Shown here piece after piece: positions 41,168 to 49,748 of a stretch of 49,748 nucleotides of DNA. Each line of letters begins with the position of its first letter. Position 1 is the stretch's first letter. This DNA is from Rhodobacterales bacterium (GTDB taxonomy: Bacteria > Pseudomonadota > Alphaproteobacteria > Rhodobacterales > Rhodobacteraceae). The stretch covers positions 1-49,748 of the forward strand of contig JANOQM010000079.1 in assembly GCA_031422295.1 (NCBI GenBank), in the 5' to 3' direction. The notes under the pieces are model-generated. The model did not search any database and had not been told where the DNA came from. It saw only the letters and a list, made by a program, of their open reading frames with translations. Made by a program: the position numbers and the translations under genes.

Positions 41168-42373
41168 CTAACCCGCCAGCCGCGCCTCGATCCCAGCTGC
41201 GGGTGTGGCCAGCCAATCGCGATAGTCGACCACAAACCGGTCAAGCAGCGCATCGGTGACATTTGGCATGACGATGGCATGCGCCTGACCTTTGTAGCAG
41301 GCCAACTGATAGGTTTTGACCAAGGTCAGGTCGGGTTCTGGGAAAACCACTGTCACGCCATGCGGATTGCACAGCACCTCGACCCCGGCAGCGCGGAGTC
41401 TGGCAGTCAGACCCTGTGCGCGCAGCGTGCACCGCAATGCGTCATGCGCAAAACCGCCATAGCCATGCCCCATCAGCCGGGCCCATATTGCCAGCACCGC
41501 ATGTCCGCTGCGTGAACCCATCAATGTGGTGTCGTTTGAGCGCAGGTAAGCCACGGCCCGCGCAATCCGGTCGCTATGCTCTTTGCGGCAGATGATTGCG
41601 CCGCAGGGCATCGGTGTGCCGATCATCTTGTGACCTGAGGTTGATATGCTATCGATGGCCTGTTCAAAGCTGGGCTGGATTGATGCCGGGGCGGTTGGCA
41701 AAAACGGCACAACCATCGCGTTCAGCGCCCCATCAACATGAATGTAACGTTGGTCACGACCGTAGCCCGCTGCATCCAGCGCCGCGACAGCGCCGGTTAT
41801 ATCATCATGTGCCCCCTTCATCGTGGTGCCGCAGGTCAGCGCCAGAATAACTGGCTGCCCGCGCAACTCGGCAATAACTTCGGCCAAATGGTTCAGGTCG
41901 ATCGCGCCATTGTCGCAGCTACGCACTTCGATCGCGGGGACCCGTTGAATGCGCGCGGCCTTTGGGATTGAATAATGCGCATCGGCGCTGTGCAGTAGAA
42001 CGGCATCTGGCAAGGCTTCGCGCCCCAGATAGATGCCCCATAGATTACCTTCGGTGCCGCTGGCCCCAATAGCGCCCCAGAACGCGTCCGGATCGTGACA
42101 CCCCCACAGATCCATCAGCCACCGGATCGCCGCGCGCTCCAGATCACAAACCTCGGCACCGTAATGCGACCCGGCATAAGGATCGCCCAGATTATTGATC
42201 AGATAGCCCCACAGGTTGTCGGGCACCCCAGGTGAAAACGAGAGGTTATATGGATATCCCAGATGATTTTCATGTGCGACCTGCATTTTCCGCGCGGTCA
42301 GCCGAAAGGTGTCATGCATCATTTCTGGTGTTGTCTTCGGCATATATCCGGTTTTGGCAAAGGAGTGGTTCAT
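41168..42373 (-). CDS. hdc: Pyridoxal-dependent histidine decarboxylase, 401 aa
   Basis: Close match to the bacterial HDC pattern: SGTEGNLWG, HYSIPKAARI, the DSISTSGHKMIGTPMPCG lysine motif, and GSRSGH. Confidence 0.8.
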   Translation of the reverse strand: MNHSFAKTGYMPKTTPEMMHDTFRLTARKMQVAHENHLGYPYNLSFSPGVPDNLWGYLINNLGDPYAGSHYGAEVCDLERAAIRWLMDLWGCHDPDAFWGAIGASGTEGNLWGIYLGREALPDAVLLHSADAHYSIPKAARIQRVPAIEVRSCDNGAIDLNHLAEVIAELRGQPVILALTCGTTMKGAHDDITGAVAALDAAGYGRDQRYIHVDGALNAMVVPFLPTAPASIQPSFEQAIDSISTSGHKMIGTPMPCGAIICRKEHSDRIARAVAYLRSNDTTLMGSRSGHAVLAIWARLMGHGYGGFAHDALRCTLRAQGLTARLRAAGVEVLCNPHGVTVVFPEPDLTLVKTYQLACYKGQAHAIVMPNVTDALLDRFVVDYRDWLATPAAGIEARLAG

Positions 42374-42536
42374 AGCAATATCTCCTGATTAACTGTGGCG
42401 ATCAAATGGATTGCTGATCGGGTAAATTTTTACGCAAATATCATGGTGCGGAAGTGGCTGATTATCTGGCCTCGCGGCAGAAAGCATTAGACTTTCTGGC
42501 CACCTGTGATCTGTCGTTAACGCGGCACGGCCTGCA

Positions 42537-42800
42537 CTATGGAAAAATATCCATCGCCGGCACGATCCTGTCGAACGGCAAGCGGGCATCGCGGTTCAAT
42601 TGAAGCACGATATCAACACTTTTGGCCTCAAACAGGCACATGCATCGCCCATCTTCGGGGACAAAGGTCGAGCGGATCAACCGTACCCGGTCACCTGCGT
42701 TGAACATCTTTTCAGTTTGCAGGATTGCCGCGGCTTTCATGGCGTGAAGATCTGCCAAAGACGTTCCGCTCAGATCACGTTCAACCAAGAAAACTTGCAT
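42537..42800 (-). CDS. DUF4242-like small protein, 87 aa
   Basis: Pattern MQVFLVERDL...LIRSTFVPEDGRCMCLFEAKSVDIV. Confidence 0.5.
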   Translation of the reverse strand: MQVFLVERDLSGTSLADLHAMKAAAILQTEKMFNAGDRVRLIRSTFVPEDGRCMCLFEAKSVDIVLQLNRDARLPFDRIVPAMDIFP

Positions 42801-43196: not shown

Positions 43197-43286
43197 GGAG
43201 GCGTGGCTGAGAGGCCGAAAGCACTCGGTTGCTAACTGAGCGTGGGGGGAACTCCACCGTGGGTTCGAATCCCACCGCCTCCGCCA
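43197..43286 (+). tRNA. tRNA-Ser (anticodon GCU), long variable arm, encoded CCA
   Basis: Acceptor stem ggaggcg/cgcctcc. Anticodon stem ctcgg/ctgag with loop ttGCTaa. Long extra arm. T-arm ggttcgaatcc. Confidence 0.9.
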
Positions 43287-43501
43287 CTTGCATGTCCTTC
43301 ATTCATCACACATGTCGTTGATGTTTATCTGTAAATCAGAATTTTAACTCGCTGACTTCGGGCCTAGGGCGCTCCTTCATTGAATTTTGCTATACATAAT
43401 GCTTTATATTCTTCGCTACATGGTGCCTGAATGCCGGGAGCTGAGCGGATCGATCGACCGCTTAGCGCAAATGCTGATACCCAACACATCGAGCTCATCA
43501 G

Positions 43502-44770
43502 ATGAAGATCACCTTGCGGGGCAATCAACTCTATCTCTACAGGCGCGTCCCGAAGCGTTACGGGGCCGTGGAGTCGCGCCAGTTTGTCTGGGTCAGCCTC
43601 CACACGGACTCGCAAACAGTGGCCGCGCTCAAGGCGACCACCGCCTGGGAGTTAATGGTCGAAGGCTGGGAGGCCAAGCTAGCCGGCGATACCACCGACG
43701 CTGAGGCCCGCTTTCAGGCGGCACGGGACCTCGCTGCAGTGCGCGGCTTTCGTTATCTGGATGCAGCGTCGGTTGCCAAACTGCCGCGCAGCGATTTGCT
43801 GGAGCGGATCGAAGCCGTCAAACAATCGCCGAAAGGCCCCGACTTTCGAGAGGCTGGAGCCTTTCTCGGCGGTGCCGCGGAACCTGAGATTACGATCAGC
43901 CGTGCACTGGAGCTTTACTGGACCCTGGCTGCAGATCGGACAATCGGCAAAAGCGATGACCAGCTTCGGCGCTGGAAAAACCCGTTGATCAAATCAGTCA
44001 AGAATTTGGTTGCCCAGATCGGGGACAAGCCGTTGTCGCATATCTCCACAGATGACATGCTCGATTTCAGGCAATGGTGGGTCGAAAGGATCGCCGAAAA
44101 AGGCTTGACCGCGAATAGCGCCAACAAGGACCTGATTCACATTGGCAGCATTTTGAAAACTGTGAACAACATGAAGCGCCTCGGACTAATCCTGCCACTT
44201 TCAGGGCTGTCGCTGAAAGAGGTTGGGCAGCAGGTTAGGCCCCCATTTAGCGACATTTGGATTAGGGACAAGCTACTTGCGCTAGGCGCATTGAGGGGCC
44301 TCAATACCGAGGCTCGCTGCATCCTGCTGGGCATGATCAATACCGGATATCGACCCAGTGAAGGGGCGGCACTCTTGCCGGCGCACATCCGGCTCGATCA
44401 CAAAGTGCCGCACATTTCCATCGAGGCAGATGTTCGGCAGTTGAAATCGGCCAACGCCAAGCGGATTATCCCTTTGACCGGGATCAGTCTTGCCGCACTG
44501 CGCGAATGCAGCAACGGCTTTCCGCGATACCGCGACAACCCGGGCCTGTCCGACACGATCAACAAGTTTCTGTCCGAGAACGAGCTGAAGGAGTCGCCCC
44601 GCCACTCTGTGTATTCGCTGCGCCACGCCTTTGAAGACAGAATGCTGGAAGCTAGTTTCGACGAGCGTATCAGACGGGATCTCTTGGGGCACAGCTTGGA
44701 TCGCGAGCGCTACGGCAAGGGGGGATCACTGGAACATACCCACGACCTCCTTCAGGCCATCGCCCTCTGA
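43502..44770 (+). CDS. int: Tyrosine-type site-specific integrase (phage-integrase family), 422 aa
   Basis: C-terminal catalytic region: ...RPSEGAAL..., HSVYSLRHAFEDRMLEA, and RRDLLGHSLDRERYGKG (the R..H-x-x-R..Y pattern). Confidence 0.8.
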   Translation: MKITLRGNQLYLYRRVPKRYGAVESRQFVWVSLHTDSQTVAALKATTAWELMVEGWEAKLAGDTTDAEARFQAARDLAAVRGFRYLDAASVAKLPRSDLLERIEAVKQSPKGPDFREAGAFLGGAAEPEITISRALELYWTLAADRTIGKSDDQLRRWKNPLIKSVKNLVAQIGDKPLSHISTDDMLDFRQWWVERIAEKGLTANSANKDLIHIGSILKTVNNMKRLGLILPLSGLSLKEVGQQVRPPFSDIWIRDKLLALGALRGLNTEARCILLGMINTGYRPSEGAALLPAHIRLDHKVPHISIEADVRQLKSANAKRIIPLTGISLAALRECSNGFPRYRDNPGLSDTINKFLSENELKESPRHSVYSLRHAFEDRMLEASFDERIRRDLLGHSLDRERYGKGGSLEHTHDLLQAIAL

Positions 44771-44937
44771 CGGGCTGTGATCGCTTTCGCACGGCGAACA
44801 ACATCGCCGCTGATCTCAATTGCGGCTAGTTCGACTTCAAGCCGCTCAAAAATTGGAACATAGACAGGATCGTGGGTCACCAAAGCTGCAACCGTCAAAT
44901 AGGCGGACTGCAATCGTTCGAGGACTGATTTCGCCAT
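44752..44937 (-). CDS. Small hypothetical ORF, 61 aa, convergent with the integrase and overlapping its 3' end by 19 nt
   Basis: ORF only. Confidence 0.2.
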   Translation of the reverse strand: MAKSVLERLQSAYLTVAALVTHDPVYVPIFERLEVELAAIEISGDVVRRAKAITARQRAMA

Positions 44938-45145
44938 TGGTCGTTCCGATCCTGAGTTCGATAATTGCCTTATAGCGGGGCGAGTTTGGACTGCGCGAGA
45001 TTCATGTGCCTTTTCGGCAACAGGCGGCTACTTAAGGCCGTGACTGCGTGAGTGACCGGACCCTCTGCATTTTGGGCGTCATCAGGCAGCTAAATCGGAC
45101 CACTATTGATGCTGGCCCAGAAGTCTCACGTGCGGCTGGACGCTG

Positions 45146-45496
45146 ATGCGACATTCCCAACAACGCGCTCGCTATAACTGTATCAAGCAACACGTTGATG
45201 TTGTAAGATTTTCAGTCGAAAGCGACCATACAACGACCATCAAGAAACCCCATATCGACACGCGGCTAGCAAAGTTCGTGGAAAAGCGGGTGCTCGAGTT
45301 GCGCCCTAGCAAAAGCCAGATCGAGATCGCGTCCGAGGCCGGCTTCGTAAACCCAAACATGCTGGCGATGATCAAGAGAGGCGCCGCGAAGCTGGCACTT
45401 GGCGTGGCTTCATTGAACCGGCGATCTTTTTGTCGGGTTTCGCCTCCGATGATCTTGGGTAAGGCCAACTCCTCTCATTGTGACATCGGGCGATAA
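45146..45496 (+). CDS. Hypothetical protein with a possible HTH, 116 aa (island cargo)
   Basis: ORF. A weak HTH-like stretch is present (SKSQIEIASEAGFVNPNMLAMIKRGAAKL). Confidence 0.3.
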   Translation: MRHSQQRARYNCIKQHVDVVRFSVESDHTTTIKKPHIDTRLAKFVEKRVLELRPSKSQIEIASEAGFVNPNMLAMIKRGAAKLALGVASLNRRSFCRVSPPMILGKANSSHCDIGR

Positions 45497-46900
45497 AGCA
45501 TTGGTCAGACTCAACCGGAGCCGTCCTGACAGCAAGGTGGAGGGATTCGTGACGAGGTAGCGAAGCTGTGCCCCGTTAGGCGACAAGCCGGCAGCACTGC
45601 GCCCCTTGCTCGGCAATGCGTCACCTGCCAGTTTGCGTGACCAGTTTGGGGCAAAGTGTTTATGAAAGGCCCACGACGCAGTCGAACACAGAAACGACTG
45701 GTTTGGAATCTCTGTGCAAGCGCCAGACGTTCGACCACGTGTCCACTTCGAGCGCGACCAGTATTTCGCTGATCACCGATCAGTGACTACGTGCGGTACG
45801 CATGGCATGAACATAGCGTGGATCGAAGGGATTTGCACCGAGTGGCGACGGGTCATACCAGTCAATATTGCCCTCTGCACTCCTGCGCTACGGTTGTTGG
45901 TCGCTCTTCATGCTCCTGAAAGGGTGCCTCTACGTCTGGGACTCAGCTGGAGCGTCGCTGACGGCAAGGTCAGTCCTGCCTGCCACCCCATTGTGAGTCA
46001 AAACCAAGACGGCCCCAGGTGACTCGCGTTGGGGCTTCTAGCGCGATGCCCTGTGTTCATCCGTCTCCATGGCAGCACCTCCTTGGTGCCGCAAGTGAAT
46101 CAGTGAGTTGGCCCGCACACAAGCGATTTAATGGGTCCTGAGCCTAGGTATGCTTCGAACTATTTCAAAGGGCAGAGTAAGACCATCCTGAGCCACAGCA
46201 TTTTGCTTGGTATACAGGCAATAGTAGAAATGCAAACTTCATAAAAGCTAAGAAACATTGCCACCACACCGTATTAATTCATTTAGATCGTCCTGCAGCC
46301 CACGACTCAGCATTTGCGAGCTGGTAACGATTTGCTCCTCTGATCGCACCGTCCAGCTGAATTTGATAAGGACCAACTCGATAAATTAGCGTATGGGCGG
46401 CGTCAATTCGCACATGGAGCATGAAGTCTGAAATTCTTTCGCTGGGCAGAATGATGATGTGAATTGTCTTGCGACTTATTTTGGGGCGATATTTCAGCTT
46501 CGAGAGTTTGTCGCGTATGTTTATTTTTGTTGGTGAGATAGTTTGTCCAAATAGGAAGTCACGCCACAGGCAATATAAAGTAATTATTGCGAGGGTTTTG
46601 CTTTATATATTGCAATGCAGTTGAAGATATGGCGCGTCATCCGCGCCCATTTCAGTATCAGAATGATTCAACGAGTTGACATAACTTCAATCTTCTGATC
46701 CCATTATTCTAGGACGGAATAGATGAAAATTTTTGTGAATTCGAAAGTTCTAATTTCTATGTGATTTTAATAGCTAGAGTTGTTGATGAGAGTGAAAAGC
46801 ACGTGGCACACTTGAGAAGATATCTGATCGTTGATAGGATCAATTTTCATTCCCAACGTCGTTGACGTCGGTTGCTGTTCCCAAAGGCAAGGAAGCTAGG

Positions 46901-49144
46901 GTGACTATTTTCTTCGCTCATTCAGCGAGTTCTTCAGACTCTCTCGACTGGCAAACGCTTCCCGAGCATCTGACGCAGGTCGCCAAAGCTGCGTCAGAGA
47001 GAGCCTTTCCTTTCGGGCTATCCCAGTTGACCCATCTTGCGGGCCTGTTTCACGATCTTGGAAAGTATGATCGAGCGTTTCAGCGCAAATTGTCTGGCGA
47101 GGTCAATCGGGTCGATCATTCGTCCGCCGGAGCTGTGGTTCTGTTGGATCAGGCGCAACCAAAAGATCGCATTCCAGTCGAGATGGTTGCCTATGCGATC
47201 TTGGGCCACCACGCCGGTTTGCCAGACTATGATACATCCGACGGGGCCAGCTTTCAGCGGCGTGTCGAAAACTACAATGACCAACTTGATCCGATCTGGA
47301 GACAACAAATCCAAGTGCCGCAACCAGATTTATCTGGCGAGCTTATGGCCCTGTTGCAAGGGCGTAGCAGTAAATTGACAGGCCCATTTGATATCTCGGT
47401 CGCCACGCGTATGCTGTTCTCCAGCCTTGTCGACGCCGATTTCCGCGATACCGAAGCGTTTTATGGCGAACTCGAAGGAACGACGAAGGACCGCGACTGG
47501 ACCGCACTGCAAATGGCTTTGCCGCAGTTTATAGCAGCCTTTAACGACCATATGGCAAAACTGCCCAACACTGCCATAGCCGTCAACACATTGCGACACG
47601 AGGTTTTGGCGCATGTGCGGGGCAGGGCAGGGATGTCGCCGGGTCTGTTCACCCTGACTGTGCCGACCGGGGGTGGCAAGACGCTGGCTTCATTGGGGTT
47701 TGCGCTGGATCATGCGCAGTTGCACGGGCATTCACGAATTATCTATGCCATCCCTTTCACCTCGATCATCGATCAGACCGCCGCGATTTTTCGGGGCATT
47801 CTTGGCGACATGAACGTTCTCGAGCACCACTCGGCCATCGAAGATGATGCGAGAAACGATAAGGACCGCAAAAGCCGTGACAAGGTGCAGCTGGCGATGG
47901 AGGATTGGGCGGCCCCGGTGGTCGTGACCACCAATGTGCAACTCTTCGAAAGCCTGTTTGCCGCCCGCCCCGGTCGTGCCCGCAAGCTGCACAACATCGC
48001 AGGGTCTGTTATCATTCTGGACGAGGCGCAGACCATACCGCGCCCGTTGCTTCTCCCCTGCCTGCGCATGCTGGATAGCATGGCGCGGCTGTTTCACTGC
48101 TCGATCGTGCTGTGCACGGCGACGCAACCTGCGGTGGACGAGGCTGTTTTGAAGGGTGGGCTGGCGCTGGCCGGGCGCGAACTGGCACCTGACCCGGCAG
48201 CGCTGGCCAGGCGGTTGCGACGGGTGCAAATTGGCCATGCTGGTGTCATGGATAACTTGGCTTTGGTGGCCGCGTTAAGTGGTGTGCAGCAGGGTCTGGT
48301 TGTGGTCAACAGTCGGGTTCATGCGCTGGATTTGTGGAACGATGCTAAAGGGTTGGACGGACTTTATCATTTGTCAACACGCCAATATGCAGCGCACCGG
48401 CGGCGTTTGCTGGCAATAATTCGCCAAAGGCTTGCCGATGGGCTGCCATGCCGCGTGATCTCGACCAGTTTGATCGAGGCGGGGGTGGATATTTCATTTC
48501 CTTGCGCATGGCGGGCCGAGGCGGGTTTGGATCAAATTGTGCAGGTTGCCGGACGGGTGCACCGCAATGGCGAGATGTCGCCAGAATTGGGGCGGGTGAC
48601 AGTCTTTACTCCCGATGGCTATGCCCCGCCGCCTGAAATCAAGGGGCTGATTGGCGATATGGCCCGGATGCGGGAAAAGTTTGACGACTTGCAATCGCCG
48701 GAAGCGATTCAGAGTTACTTTGGCGAGGTGTATTGGCGGCTGGATGCTGACTTGGACCGCGAAGGAATTGTGGGAAGTTTCAAGATCATCGGCAATCACA
48801 CCAATTTCAACTTCCGCACCGTGGCCGAAAAGTTTCGGATGATCGAAAGCGGCATGGTGCCGGTGATTATTCCATGGGATGCGGAGAGTAGCGCGGCTAT
48901 TTCAGACCTTGAAAAACCATGGATCAAATCCGGCCAGATTGCCCGCGCCCTGCAAACCCACCTCGTGACCGTTCCACCCAAAGCCCGCGACCGGATGCAG
49001 GCCTGCGGCAAGGGCTATTTCGCCCAGCCGAAAGTGCGGGGCGATCAGTTCTTTGTGCTGGAGGCTATGAGCCTTTATCACGAGGAAACCGGCCTGCATT
49101 GGGAAGATGCGGAATATCTGGGGATAGAAGCAGGGATAATTTAA
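46901..49144 (+). CDS. cas3: CRISPR-associated helicase/nuclease Cas3 (HD nuclease + SF2 helicase), type I; 747 aa from a GTG start. The frame stays open upstream to the TTG at 46862.
   Basis: HD motif FFAHSA...HLAGLFHDLGKYDRAFQ. Walker A VPTGGGKT. Motif II IILDEAQ. The GTG at 46901 is preceded by an aaggaag RBS. Confidence 0.88.
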   Translation: MTIFFAHSASSSDSLDWQTLPEHLTQVAKAASERAFPFGLSQLTHLAGLFHDLGKYDRAFQRKLSGEVNRVDHSSAGAVVLLDQAQPKDRIPVEMVAYAILGHHAGLPDYDTSDGASFQRRVENYNDQLDPIWRQQIQVPQPDLSGELMALLQGRSSKLTGPFDISVATRMLFSSLVDADFRDTEAFYGELEGTTKDRDWTALQMALPQFIAAFNDHMAKLPNTAIAVNTLRHEVLAHVRGRAGMSPGLFTLTVPTGGGKTLASLGFALDHAQLHGHSRIIYAIPFTSIIDQTAAIFRGILGDMNVLEHHSAIEDDARNDKDRKSRDKVQLAMEDWAAPVVVTTNVQLFESLFAARPGRARKLHNIAGSVIILDEAQTIPRPLLLPCLRMLDSMARLFHCSIVLCTATQPAVDEAVLKGGLALAGRELAPDPAALARRLRRVQIGHAGVMDNLALVAALSGVQQGLVVVNSRVHALDLWNDAKGLDGLYHLSTRQYAAHRRRLLAIIRQRLADGLPCRVISTSLIEAGVDISFPCAWRAEAGLDQIVQVAGRVHRNGEMSPELGRVTVFTPDGYAPPPEIKGLIGDMARMREKFDDLQSPEAIQSYFGEVYWRLDADLDREGIVGSFKIIGNHTNFNFRTVAEKFRMIESGMVPVIIPWDAESSAAISDLEKPWIKSGQIARALQTHLVTVPPKARDRMQACGKGYFAQPKVRGDQFFVLEAMSLYHEETGLHWEDAEYLGIEAGII

Positions 49145-49211
49145 TTTTAGTCAGATAATGCTTGCCTGACCGACGTAAGCACCCAAGGTGGTGCTGGTAG
49201 GTGGAGGCATT

Positions 49212-49609
49212 ATGTCATACGGAATTCGACTTAAAGTCTGGGGCGACTATGCTCTTTTTACCCGGCCCGAATTGAAAGTCGAACGCCTGACCTATGATGT
49301 CATCACCCCCTCTGCCGCGCGGGGTATCCTTGAGGCGATCCATTGGAAACCGTCGATCCGCTGGGTGATTGACCGCATCCATGTGCTGACACCGATCCGT
49401 CACCAGTCAATCCGCAGGAACGAAGTGGGGCACAAGGCCCCGGCGGGCAGCATCAAACGAGCGATGAACCGGGGCGACCTGGAGGGCTTGGGGATTTTGG
49501 TTGATGACCAGAAGGTGCGCCAGCAGCGGGCGTCCACGGTGCTGGTCAAACCCACCTATCTGATCGAGGCGCATTTTGTTTTGACTGACAAGGCGGAGGC
49601 AGAGGATAA
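49212..49609 (+). pseudogene. cas5: cas5c (type I-C Cas5), truncated after about 132 codons by an IS insertion
   Basis: Reads MSYGIRLKVWGDYALFTRPELKVERLTYDVITPSAARGILEAIHWKPSIRWVIDRIHVL... up to ...IEAHFVLTDKAEAEDN. The sequence then switches to an IS3-type inverted repeat at 49610. A ggtggagg RBS precedes the ATG at 49212. Confidence 0.75.
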
Positions 49610-49748
49610 TGAACCGCCCCGGGTTTACCGGAGGGCAAAACTCTCGGAGAATTGCCCATTATGGAACATGCACAAAAGAAGAAGACCGCGAAGCCGTATT
49701 CACCTGAGTTCCGCGAACGAGCGGTGCGGCTTGCGATGGAACACCGCG
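49610..49748 (+). mobile_element. IS3-family (IS3 group) insertion sequence, left end. The left inverted repeat starts TGAACCGCCCCGGG... The element continues beyond the window.
   Basis: The inverted repeat tgaaccgccccgggtttaccggagggcaaaactc closely resembles the E. coli IS3 terminal repeat. It is followed 51 nt later by an OrfA start. Confidence 0.7.
49661..49748 (+). CDS. IS3-family transposase OrfA (HTH part), 5' fragment
   Basis: Reads MEHAQKKKTAKPYSPEFRERAVRLAMEHR. The K-rich stretch plus YSPEFRxxAV is the canonical IS3 OrfA N-terminus. Confidence 0.65.
   Translation, partial: MEHAQKKKTAKPYSPEFRERAVRLAMEHR

What the first reader, a model, noticed from the sequence alone, without database searches (positions are those of the whole stretch)
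43197..49748. tRNA-Ser(GCU)-associated integrase island carrying a type I-C CRISPR-Cas start; cas5c is disrupted by an IS3-group element
A tyrosine integrase follows the tRNA 215 bp downstream, after an AT-rich stretch. This is classic island architecture. Further in, after 1.3 kb with no convincing ORF, cas3 (HD + helicase) is followed by cas5c with a strong RBS. This order, cas3 then cas5c, marks subtype I-C. The cas5c frame stops at 49609, where a near-consensus IS3 left inverted repeat (TGAACCGCCCCGGG...) and an IS3 OrfA begin. If cas8c, cas7, cas4, cas1, cas2 and the array lie beyond the IS, the interference complex is probably inactivated, because Cas5c is the pre-crRNA endonuclease in I-C. 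This makes a mobile CRISPR-Cas system recently knocked out by an IS.
Basis: partly seen in the sequence, partly recalled or inferred. Interest (0 to 1): 0.7.

Follow-up and report, generated by a model that had tools for sequence, protein, structure and literature searches.

The report
IS-disrupted type I-C CRISPR locus
Next to a serine tRNA gene and an integrase, an uncultured Paracoccaceae-like bacterium carries the start of an ordinary type I-C CRISPR-Cas operon whose second gene (cas5c) is cut by a 1.3-kb jumping gene. Both features are real but already well known, and the contig ends inside the jumping gene, so the rest of the operon cannot be seen.

Summary
These are tRNA-Ser(GCU) at 43197-43286, a tyrosine integrase at 43502-44770, an intact cas3 at 46901-49144, and cas5c from 49212. 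Cas5c homology ends after residue ~134 of 222-224, exactly where an IS3-family left end (TGAACCGCCCC..., 49610) and its orfA (ATG 49661) begin.

Two corrections are needed. There is no stop codon at 49609, so the cas5c frame reads on into the IS. The integrase-cas3 gap is 2.1 kb, not 1.3 kb, and holds a conserved 61-aa ORF.

The window is a whole 49,748-bp NCBI contig that breaks 139 nt into the IS, so nothing downstream is visible. Metagenome relatives that are 97% identical and syntenic carry intact cas5c, then cas8c-cas7-cas4-cas1-cas2 and a 32-nt repeat array. No cas8c, cas7, cas4 or cas1 from this strain turned up in the protein collection, so simple insertion and IS-mediated deletion both remain possible.

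The island reading is partly supported. A more distant genome with a different upstream flank has the same tRNA-Ser, integrase, 61-aa ORF and I-C arrangement. No far border or empty site was found.

Both phenomena are published, so this is a new member of known kinds, of low interest.

The parts
43197..43286 (+). tRNA-Ser(GCU) gene, candidate integration target (attL side)
   Evidence: ARAGORN and Rfam RF00005 at 56.3 bits. It is identical in relative L001.
43287..43501 (.). AT-richer spacer between the tRNA and the integrase, with a conserved motif GCTATACAT...TACATGG at about 43396-43432
   Evidence: GC is 0.456. The motif is conserved in window, L001 and L010, and partly in two IMG/VR loci. 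Its function (integrase promoter, operator or arm site) is only inferred.
43502..44770 (+). Tyrosine integrase, 422 aa, apparently intact
   Evidence: PF00589 at 32.3 bits and a weak DUF6538. It is 71% aa identical over its full length to the L010 integrase. Relatives at 60-66% identity lie directly 3' of tRNA-Ser or tRNA-Asn genes.
44752..44937 (-). Conserved 61-aa ORF partnered with the integrase; function unknown, candidate directionality or regulatory factor
   Evidence: It is 95% identical to the L001 copy and 61% to the L010 copy. It is found next to the integrase in 10 IMG/VR loci. It has no Pfam hit.
45146..45496 (+). XRE-like small ORF, possibly a remnant
   Evidence: Window 45242-45399 is 73% identical at the DNA level to XRE/HTH regulator genes on Cereibacter plasmids. 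The ORF has no Pfam hit. L001 diverges from the window inside it, at 45352.
45352..46067 (.). Variable 716-bp segment with no recognisable gene, replaced in the 97% relative L001 by a 278-bp IS5-like (DUF4096) remnant
   Evidence: blastn breakpoints, L001 gene calls, no Pfam hits, and no repeats or translated similarity elsewhere.
46200..46900 (+). AT-rich cas3 upstream region with a promoter-like site at 46812-46840
   Evidence: GC is 0.38-0.43. The sigma-70-like match TTGAGA-17-TAGGAT with an upstream TG is a consensus match only.
46901..49144 (+). cas3 (HD nuclease plus SF2 helicase), intact, 747 aa from GTG 46901 (an alternative TTG lies at 46862)
   Evidence: Pfam and NCBIfam hits. It is collinear with homologues and keeps the HDLGKYD, PTGGGKT and DEAQ motifs. 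It is 97% identical to P0001, and the exact 747-aa product is on Logan contig L003.
49212..49609 (+). 5' 60% of cas5c (codons 1 to ~133); the frame continues without a stop into the IS
   Evidence: TIGR01876 at 102.9 bits, profile positions 1-98 of 203. Alignment with full-length Cas5c. Full-length relatives match solved Cas5c structures end to end.
49607..49609 (.). Predicted 3-bp target site (TAA) that would be duplicated at the unseen right end
   Evidence: This is an inference. Four complete copies of the same IS in metagenomes show 3-bp duplications, and the intact target in L002 reads GAGGATAA|TGAGGGC.
49610..49748 (+). Left 139 nt of an IS3-family element: IRL about 49610-49636 and orfA start at 49661 (29 codons). 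The contig ends here.
   Evidence: The IS is in the same orientation as the cas genes. Similarity to annotated IS3 elements starts exactly at 49610. There are at least 120 exact IRL matches in metagenomes, and complete copies are 1335-1336 bp. The closest complete copy (134/139 identical) has orfA HTH_Tnp_1 and orfB rve, with NF033516 at 306.8 bits.

Best explanation
The window is a complete contig from an uncultured Paracoccaceae-like alphaproteobacterium.

Immediately 3' of tRNA-Ser(GCU) lies an integrase module: a tyrosine integrase plus a conserved 61-aa partner ORF. After about 2 kb of unstable sequence littered with IS remnants comes a standard type I-C CRISPR-Cas operon.

A roughly 1.34-kb IS3-family element has transposed into cas5c after codon ~133, in the same orientation as the operon.

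Shown:
- The junction itself.
- The identity of both partners.
- An intact cas3.

Inferred:
- The truncated Cas5c (N-terminal 60% plus an IS-encoded tail of about 55 aa) cannot cleave pre-crRNA or nucleate Cascade. In subtype I-C, Cas5c replaces Cas6 and is also a Cascade subunit.
- The IS separates the downstream genes from the cas3-proximal promoter, so interference is lost.
- The operon remainder (cas5c 3' end, cas8c, cas7, cas4, cas1, cas2, array) most likely lies on the other side of the IS, as in the 97%-identical relatives. It was not assembled onto this contig because the IS is a repeat.
For: - All features and coordinates are confirmed.
- Cas5c homology ends at residue ~134 of 222-224. 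Intact homologues align end to end with solved Cas5c structures 3VZI, 7KHA and 8DEX.
- The IS boundary is defined by alignment with annotated IS3 elements whose transposase starts 50-51 nt from the end, as here. It is also defined by at least 120 metagenome copies.
- The closest complete copy is a typical two-ORF IS3 element.
- The same junction is present in Logan contig L003, assembled separately from run SRR20217188, which is identical to window 46117-49637 and also breaks in the IS.
- The window is a whole contig.
- Syntenic relatives L001 and L002 (97% nt) have intact cas5c, cas8c-cas7-cas4-cas1-cas2 and the repeat GTCGCCCCCCTCGTGGGGGCGTGGATCGAAAC.
- L010/L011 show the same tRNA-Ser, integrase, 61-aa ORF and I-C arrangement in another flank.
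- Natural IS insertions in cas genes are documented (PMC10359306).
Against: - The right end of the IS, its target duplication and the 3' part of cas5c were not seen.
- No Cas8c, Cas7, Cas4 or Cas1 at 90% identity or more to the close relative comes from an NCBI or Logan source, whereas most other proteins of this contig are on record from NCBI. The rest of the operon may therefore be missing from the assembly or from the genome.
- The source is probably a metagenome bin, so the insertion may be present in only part of the population.
- Loss of function is inferred, not measured.
Confidence: 0.8

Rival explanations
1. The junction is the scar of an IS-mediated deletion or rearrangement, not a simple insertion. 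In this reading the genome has lost the 3' part of cas5c, and possibly cas8c through cas2 and the array. Only cas3 and a cas5c stump remain next to an IS copy.
For: - In the 90% clusters of the relative's Cas8c, Cas7, Cas4, Cas1 and Cas5c there is no member from NCBI or Logan. The best Cas8c hits from those sources are at most 89% identical and belong to other genomes.
- By contrast, 8 of 10 other proteins of this contig are on record with an NCBI source.
- The exact Cas3 is in a Logan assembly.
- IS copies are numerous in such communities.
Against: - The 5-6 kb stretch between an IS and a CRISPR array is flanked by repeats on both sides. Such a stretch is easily left unassembled or unbinned.
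- The integrase and two other window proteins are also missing from the collection, so absence is weak evidence.
- Clustering is not exhaustive.
Confidence: 0.2
2. The integrase module is a relic of a small phage-like element that once integrated at tRNA-Ser. In this reading the type I-C locus is not its cargo. It arrived separately, for example by IS-mediated insertion or recombination at the same hotspot, so there is no mobile CRISPR-Cas island.
For: - The nearest integrase relatives outside this group (60-66% aa) sit in IMG/VR contigs next to tRNAs. The two loci scanned (L144, L149) carry capsid-protease, terminase gpA and a DUF5906 protein, and none of the 15 loci has cas genes.
- The 2-kb spacer between the integrase module and cas3 is not conserved between lineages. 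It holds different IS remnants in each: DUF4096 in L001 and HTH_Tnp_1 in L010.
- Related I-C modules sit in quite different contexts, often beside IS elements.
- No attR repeat was found and GC does not deviate.
Against: - The same integrase, 61-aa ORF and I-C linkage at tRNA-Ser(GCU) occurs in two lineages with unrelated upstream flanks and clearly different tRNA-Ser sequences. Co-transfer explains this most simply.
- No phage-gene remnants are detectable in the spacer.
Confidence: 0.3
3. The cas5c-IS junction is an assembly chimera and cas5c is intact in the organism.
For: - The source is probably a metagenome bin.
- The contig ends in a repeat.
- A related scaffold (L001) has an assembly gap at almost the same place.
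Against: - Two assemblies share the identical junction.
- The sequence shared by target and IS at the junction is only 3 nt (TGA), far too short to cause a k-mer misjoin.
- The break falls exactly at the canonical first base of the IS.
Confidence: 0.03

Closest known systems
Type I-C (Dvulg/Csd) CRISPR-Cas systems, e.g. Desulfovibrio (Nitratidesulfovibrio) vulgaris and Xanthomonas oryzae
   Same: - cas3 with a fused HD nuclease and helicase is followed directly by cas5c.
- The Cas5c equivalog model scores above its cut-off.
- Full-length relatives match solved Cas5c chains 3VZI, 7KHA and 8DEX end to end.
- Near-identical relatives have cas8c/Csd1, cas7, cas4, cas1, cas2 and a 32-nt repeat.
- Annotated plasmid records call the matching genes Cas3 and type I-C Cas5c.
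   Different: Here cas5c is cut after about 60% of its length, and everything 3' of it is unseen.
Natural IS insertions that inactivate cas genes (Sheng et al. 2023, Nat Commun, PMC10359306)
   Same: An insertion sequence sits inside a cas effector gene of an otherwise intact locus. That paper reports multiple natural cases, and IS3 was among the elements trapped in cas genes experimentally.
   Different: This case is in an uncultured Paracoccaceae-like genome, in subtype I-C cas5c, with a different IS3-family element. No selection context such as self-targeting or plasmid uptake is known.
CRISPR-Cas systems on genomic islands and other mobile elements (e.g. Vibrionaceae survey, PMC6360697)
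   Same: The cas locus lies next to an integrase at a tRNA gene. That survey describes CRISPR-Cas types, including I-C, in regions with integrases and transposases, and islands at tRNA loci.
   Different: Island borders and an empty site are shown there for several cases. Here neither could be shown.
IS3 family insertion sequences (two-ORF, about 1.3 kb, TG...CA ends, 3-bp duplication)
   Same: - The IRL starts with TGAACCG, and orfA starts 51 nt from the end.
- The closest complete copies are 1336 bp. They have orfA (HTH_Tnp_1), an orfB (rve, NF033516 at 306.8 bits) that lies one base back (frame -1) and overlaps the end of orfA, and 3-bp duplications.
   Different: Only 139 nt of this copy are visible. 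Assignment to a named IS or subgroup was not possible, because no ISfinder was available. From memory the ends resemble the IS51/IS407-type groups, which was not tested.

Membership tests
Type I-C CRISPR-Cas | Cas5c (Cas5d) of the I-C type | tested here: met
   TIGR01876 scores 102.9 bits against a cut-off of 85, and PF09704 gives 2.9e-28. Only the N-terminal ~134 residues are present.
Type I-C CRISPR-Cas | Cas3 with HD nuclease and helicase in one protein, encoded directly upstream of cas5c | tested here: met
   TIGR01596, PF18019, PF00270 and PF22590 all hit. cas3 ends at 49144 and cas5c starts at 49212.
Type I-C CRISPR-Cas | Signature large subunit Cas8c/Csd1, plus cas7, cas4, cas1 and cas2, with no cas6 | not testable with these tools
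   These lie beyond the contig end. They are present in the 97% relatives L001 and L002. No copy from this strain is in the protein collection.
Type I-C CRISPR-Cas | CRISPR array with a 32-nt I-C type repeat | tested here: not met
   The window has no copy of the relative's repeat and no array. An array is present after cas2 in L001. One would be expected beyond the contig end.
IS3 family insertion sequence | Terminal inverted repeats beginning with TG | tested here: inconclusive
   The IRL TGAACCGCCCCGGGTTTACCGGAGGGC is present. The IRR of this copy is not visible. Complete relatives have a matching IRR.
IS3 family insertion sequence | orfA (HTH) and orfB (DDE/rve) in the 0 and -1 frames | tested here: inconclusive
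   Only 29 codons of orfA are visible. The closest complete copy, 134/139 identical, has both ORFs, with NF033516 at 306.8 bits.
IS3 family insertion sequence | 3-bp target-site duplication | not testable with these tools
   The right junction is absent. Four other copies show 3-bp duplications. TAA is predicted here.
tRNA-integrated genomic island | Tyrosine integrase gene adjacent to the 3' end of a tRNA gene, in the same orientation | tested here: met
   The integrase family is repeatedly found directly 3' of tRNA-Ser or tRNA-Asn.
tRNA-integrated genomic island | Direct repeat of the tRNA 3' end at the far border (attR) | tested here: not met
   No repeat was found in window 43287-49748, in L001 up to its array, or in related loci. 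The far border may lie beyond the available sequence.
tRNA-integrated genomic island | Presence/absence polymorphism: an empty site in a related genome | tested here: inconclusive
   The closest genomes with long contigs (histidine decarboxylase 70-74% identical) are not syntenic at this point and lack the tRNA-Ser. Closer relatives have contigs that are too short.
tRNA-integrated genomic island | Composition deviating from the host chromosome | tested here: not met
   Integrase, cas3 and cas5c have GC 0.57, against 0.575 for the rest of the contig. GC3 lies within the range of the core genes.

The most novel reading that the evidence does not exclude
The integrase plus 61-aa ORF module belongs to a family of small tRNA-integrating, phage-like elements (capsid-protease, terminase gpA, DUF5906 primase). 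In one sublineage the module may have exchanged its phage cargo for a complete type I-C CRISPR-Cas locus. That would create a satellite- or prophage-derived vehicle that moves adaptive immunity between Paracoccaceae genomes via tRNA-Ser(GCU). In the sampled population the IS in cas5c would be a polymorphic on/off lesion.
Probability: 0.12. Interest if true: 0.45.

Novelty: new member of a known kind. Interest (0 to 1): 0.2.

Why it matters
This adds one more natural example of an insertion sequence silencing a CRISPR-Cas effector gene, here cas5c of subtype I-C in an environmental alphaproteobacterium. It also adds one more example of a cas locus sitting in an integrase-marked tRNA hotspot. 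Both fit the current view that CRISPR-Cas loci are gained, moved and lost quickly. Neither changes that view. The practical lesson concerns annotation: the contig ends inside the IS, so this genome should not be scored as either having or lacking a complete I-C system without read-level checks.

Tried and rejected
- **Exact-protein look-ups.** The 760-aa Cas3 and the integrase were not on record. The 747-aa Cas3 gave only a 3.5-kb Logan contig that also ends in the IS.
- **Genome scan.** The genome-contig scan with Cas3 did not find the source genome. The best hit was 76% identical.
- **Metagenome scan.** The exact cas5c-IS junction was not found. The second scan was therefore spent on the IS end.
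- **Downstream genes of this strain.** Cluster listings and a Cas8c homology search found none. A promising 5.7-kb Logan contig turned out to be another organism with intact cas5c.
- **Source record.** A look-up meant to retrieve the NCBI record returned only the ENA relatives.
- **Empty site.** Histidine-decarboxylase neighbours at 70-74% identity are not syntenic.
- **attR search.** Matching the tRNA 3' end gave only chance-level matches.
- **CRISPR array elsewhere in the window.** None was found.
- **Integrase-cas3 spacer.** Pfam scans and a translated comparison with related loci found nothing. A DNA search against plasmids found only a 158-nt XRE-like match.
- **Composition.** GC and GC3 give no island signal.
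- **Assembly-chimera explanation.** Rejected, because target and IS share only 3 nt at the junction.
Full report
**What is in the sequence**

ARAGORN finds a single tRNA in the window, tRNA-Ser(GCU), at 43197-43286. Rfam confirms it.

A 422-aa ORF begins 215 nt downstream (43502-44770). It matches the phage-integrase family above the Pfam cut-off and has a weak DUF6538 N-terminus. The gap between the two has GC 0.456, against 0.575 for the rest of the contig.

A 760-aa ORF (46862-49144) carries the Cas3 HD domain, a DEAD/ResIII helicase core and the Cas3 C-terminal domain. Relatives are called from the equivalent of GTG 46901, giving 747 aa. That exact product is on record, so 46901 is the likelier start. 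The protein is collinear with homologues and keeps the HD and helicase motifs.

An ORF with a GGAGG ribosome-binding site opens at 49212. It scores 102.9 bits against the NCBIfam model 'type I-C Cas5c', whose cut-off is 85. It covers only profile positions 1-98 of 203.

**The break in cas5c**

I aligned the ORF with five full-length Cas5c proteins of relatives (222-224 aa). It is near-identical up to ...EDNE (residue ~134) and unrelated afterwards. Intact relatives align end to end with solved Cas5c structures (3VZI, 7KHA, 8DEX). About 40% of the fold is therefore missing here.

At the DNA level, the intact target in relative L002 reads GAGGATAATGAGGGCAAGC. The window reads GAGGATAA-TGAACCGCCCCGGG.

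There is no stop codon, and the frame runs on through the IS to the window end. In the closest complete IS copy, that frame would stop after 55 IS-derived codons.

**The IS**

The 139 nt from 49610 match annotated IS3-family elements on alphaproteobacterial plasmids. In two complete examples (1327 and 1331 bp) the similarity starts exactly at TGAACCG, and the flanks are unrelated. Their transposase CDS starts 50-51 nt from the end, as here (ATG 49661). They have 26-27-nt terminal inverted repeats.

The 27-nt left end has at least 120 exact matches in JGI metagenomes, mostly at contig ends, as expected for a repeat.

Complete copies are 1335-1336 bp and have an IRR reading ...CACCCTCCGGTAAACCCGGGGCGGTTCA. 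Four of them show clean 3-bp target duplications.

The closest complete copy is 134/139 identical over the visible part. It has an orfA with HTH_Tnp_1. Its orfB (rve domain) overlaps the end of orfA and lies one base back, in the -1 frame. orfB scores 306.8 bits on the NCBIfam IS3 model.

The element is thus a bona fide IS3-family IS, oriented like the cas operon. The predicted duplication here is TAA (49607-49609).

**Why nothing downstream can be seen**

Exact look-ups of window proteins return NCBI-sourced entries whose longest contig is 49,748 bp, which is the window length. The window is therefore a whole contig that ends 139 nt into the IS.

A Logan contig assembled separately from run SRR20217188 is identical to window 46117-49637. 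It also stops inside the IS. The junction is real, since target and IS share only 3 nt. The assemblies break at the repeat.

**What close relatives show**

Two ENA metagenome contigs, L001 and L002, are 97-98% identical to the window and syntenic with it. L001 matches from YchF, histidine decarboxylase and the SCO4226-like gene through the tRNA, the integrase and cas3.

L002 has an intact 222-aa cas5c. L001 continues with cas8c/Csd1, cas7, cas4, cas1 and cas2. It then shows the first two copies of a 32-nt repeat, GTCGCCCCCCTCGTGGGGGCGTGGATCGAAAC, spaced 67 nt apart.

This settles the subtype as I-C. It also shows what should lie beyond the IS if the event was a simple insertion.

**Is the rest of the operon still there?**

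I could not show it. The 90% clusters of the relative's Cas5c, Cas8c, Cas7, Cas4 and Cas1 contain only ENA or JGI members. A Cas8c homology search found nothing above 89% identity from NCBI or Logan. A candidate 5.7-kb Logan contig belonged to another organism.

Eight of ten other proteins of this contig are on record from NCBI, so the absence is noticeable. It is still weak evidence. The segment between an IS and a CRISPR array is bounded by repeats and is easily lost from bins. The integrase itself is also missing from the collection.

I therefore keep IS-mediated deletion as a live rival at about 0.2.

**The island question**

*For an island:*
- A Paracoccaceae MAG contig and an ENA contig (L010/L011) show the same arrangement. 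Their Cas3 is 76% aa identical to the window's, and their integrase 71%. They have tRNA-Ser(GCU), integrase, the 61-aa ORF, an IS remnant, and then cas3-cas5c-cas8c-cas7 followed by a partly seen gene where cas4 is expected.
- They nevertheless have a completely different upstream flank and a clearly different tRNA-Ser sequence.
- The 61-aa ORF is conserved with the integrase in these loci and in 10 IMG/VR loci.
- Integrase relatives sit directly 3' of tRNA-Ser(GCU), tRNA-Ser(GGA) or tRNA-Asn.

*Against, or unresolved:*
- No repeat of the tRNA 3' end was found in the available sequence.
- No empty site was found.
- GC and GC3 do not deviate.
- The 2-kb stretch between the integrase module and cas3 is not conserved between lineages. 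It even differs between the 97% relatives, where 716 bp here are replaced by a DUF4096 remnant.
- The two IMG/VR loci scanned for cargo (L144, L149) carry capsid-protease, terminase and a DUF5906 protein, and none of the 15 loci has cas genes.
- Related I-C modules occur in quite different contexts, often beside IS elements.

The region is clearly an integrase-marked tRNA hotspot. Whether the cas locus is cargo of a currently mobile island remains open.

**Mechanism**

*Shown:*
- An IS3-family element interrupts cas5c after codon ~133.
- cas3 is intact.

*Inferred from established knowledge of subtype I-C:*
- Cas5c is both the pre-crRNA endonuclease and a Cascade subunit, and there is no Cas6.
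- The truncated protein should therefore be non-functional.
- crRNA maturation and Cascade assembly should fail.
- Transcription from the cas3-side promoter should be uncoupled from the downstream genes.

The event looks young. cas3 has no lesions, and a 97% relative has intact cas5c. It is not dated, and it may be polymorphic in the sampled population.

**Comparison with the literature**

Natural and experimentally trapped IS insertions into cas genes are described in PMC10359306. CRISPR-Cas loci, including I-C, on islands, transposons and plasmids, some at tRNA genes with integrases, are described in PMC6360697. Annotated plasmid records label the homologous genes as Cas3 and type I-C Cas5c.

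Nothing here departs from these patterns.

**Verdict**

The finding is a new member of known kinds, and its interest is low (0.2).

Noticed in passing
window 44752-44937 (-): A 61-aa ORF overlaps the integrase 3' end by 19 nt on the opposite strand. It is conserved wherever this integrase family occurs: L001, L010/L011 and 10 IMG/VR loci. It has no Pfam family. It may be a recombination directionality or regulatory factor.
   Followed up: partly
L141-L153 (IMG/VR contigs); e.g. L144 2297-11474, L149 8760-10532: Integrases 60-66% identical to the window's lie at the edge of IMG/VR contigs of 4-14 kb. In six of the 13 loci scanned a tRNA-Ser(GCU), tRNA-Ser(GGA) or tRNA-Asn gene lies directly 5' of the integrase. 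L144 encodes a capsid-protease fusion, terminase gpA and a DUF5906 protein, and L149 a terminase gpA. These look like small prophages or satellites. None carries cas genes.
   Followed up: partly
window about 43396-43432: A conserved motif, GCTATACAT...(N)...TACATGG, lies between the tRNA and the integrase start. It is shared by window, L001 and L010, and partly by two IMG/VR loci. It could be an integrase promoter, operator or arm-type site.
   Followed up: no
L001 9346-9445: The 97% relative scaffold has a 100-N assembly gap inside cas5c. The gap starts 10 nt upstream of the position where the window has the IS. This might reflect a polymorphic IS insertion in that population as well, or it may be coincidence.
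   Followed up: no
window 45352-46067 vs L001 5542-5819: A 716-bp segment of the window is replaced in the 97% relative by a 278-bp IS5-like (DUF4096) remnant. L010 has an IS3 orfA fragment at the equivalent place. The integrase-cas3 spacer therefore turns over quickly through IS activity.
   Followed up: partly
window 45146-45496 (+): This small ORF is 73% identical at the DNA level, over 45242-45399, to XRE/HTH regulator genes on Cereibacter plasmids. It has no Pfam hit, and it is truncated differently in L001.
   Followed up: partly
window 1-49748: The window is a complete NCBI contig of 49,748 bp. The nearest named relatives of its proteins are Paracoccaceae (Pseudorhodobacter, Tabrizicola, Falsihalocynthiibacter). 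The strain itself is otherwise seen only in metagenome assemblies.
   Followed up: partly
window 41168-42800 (-): A histidine-decarboxylase-like PLP enzyme (401 aa) and a small SCO4226-like nickel-responsive protein lie just upstream of the tRNA. In genomes whose decarboxylase is 70-74% identical, the enzyme sits in other contexts without the tRNA-Ser.
   Followed up: partly
L012 5744-5757: A 14-nt exact match to the last 9 nt of the window's tRNA-Ser plus 5 nt of its flank lies between core genes and an IS66/IS5 cluster that precedes a related I-C locus. E is about 0.08, so it may be chance or an att remnant.
   Followed up: no
L015-L134 (JGI metagenome loci): The exact 27-nt left end of this IS occurs in at least 120 metagenome contigs from varied aquatic, saline and Antarctic-lake-type samples, usually at contig ends. 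The IS lineage is widespread and active.
   Followed up: partly
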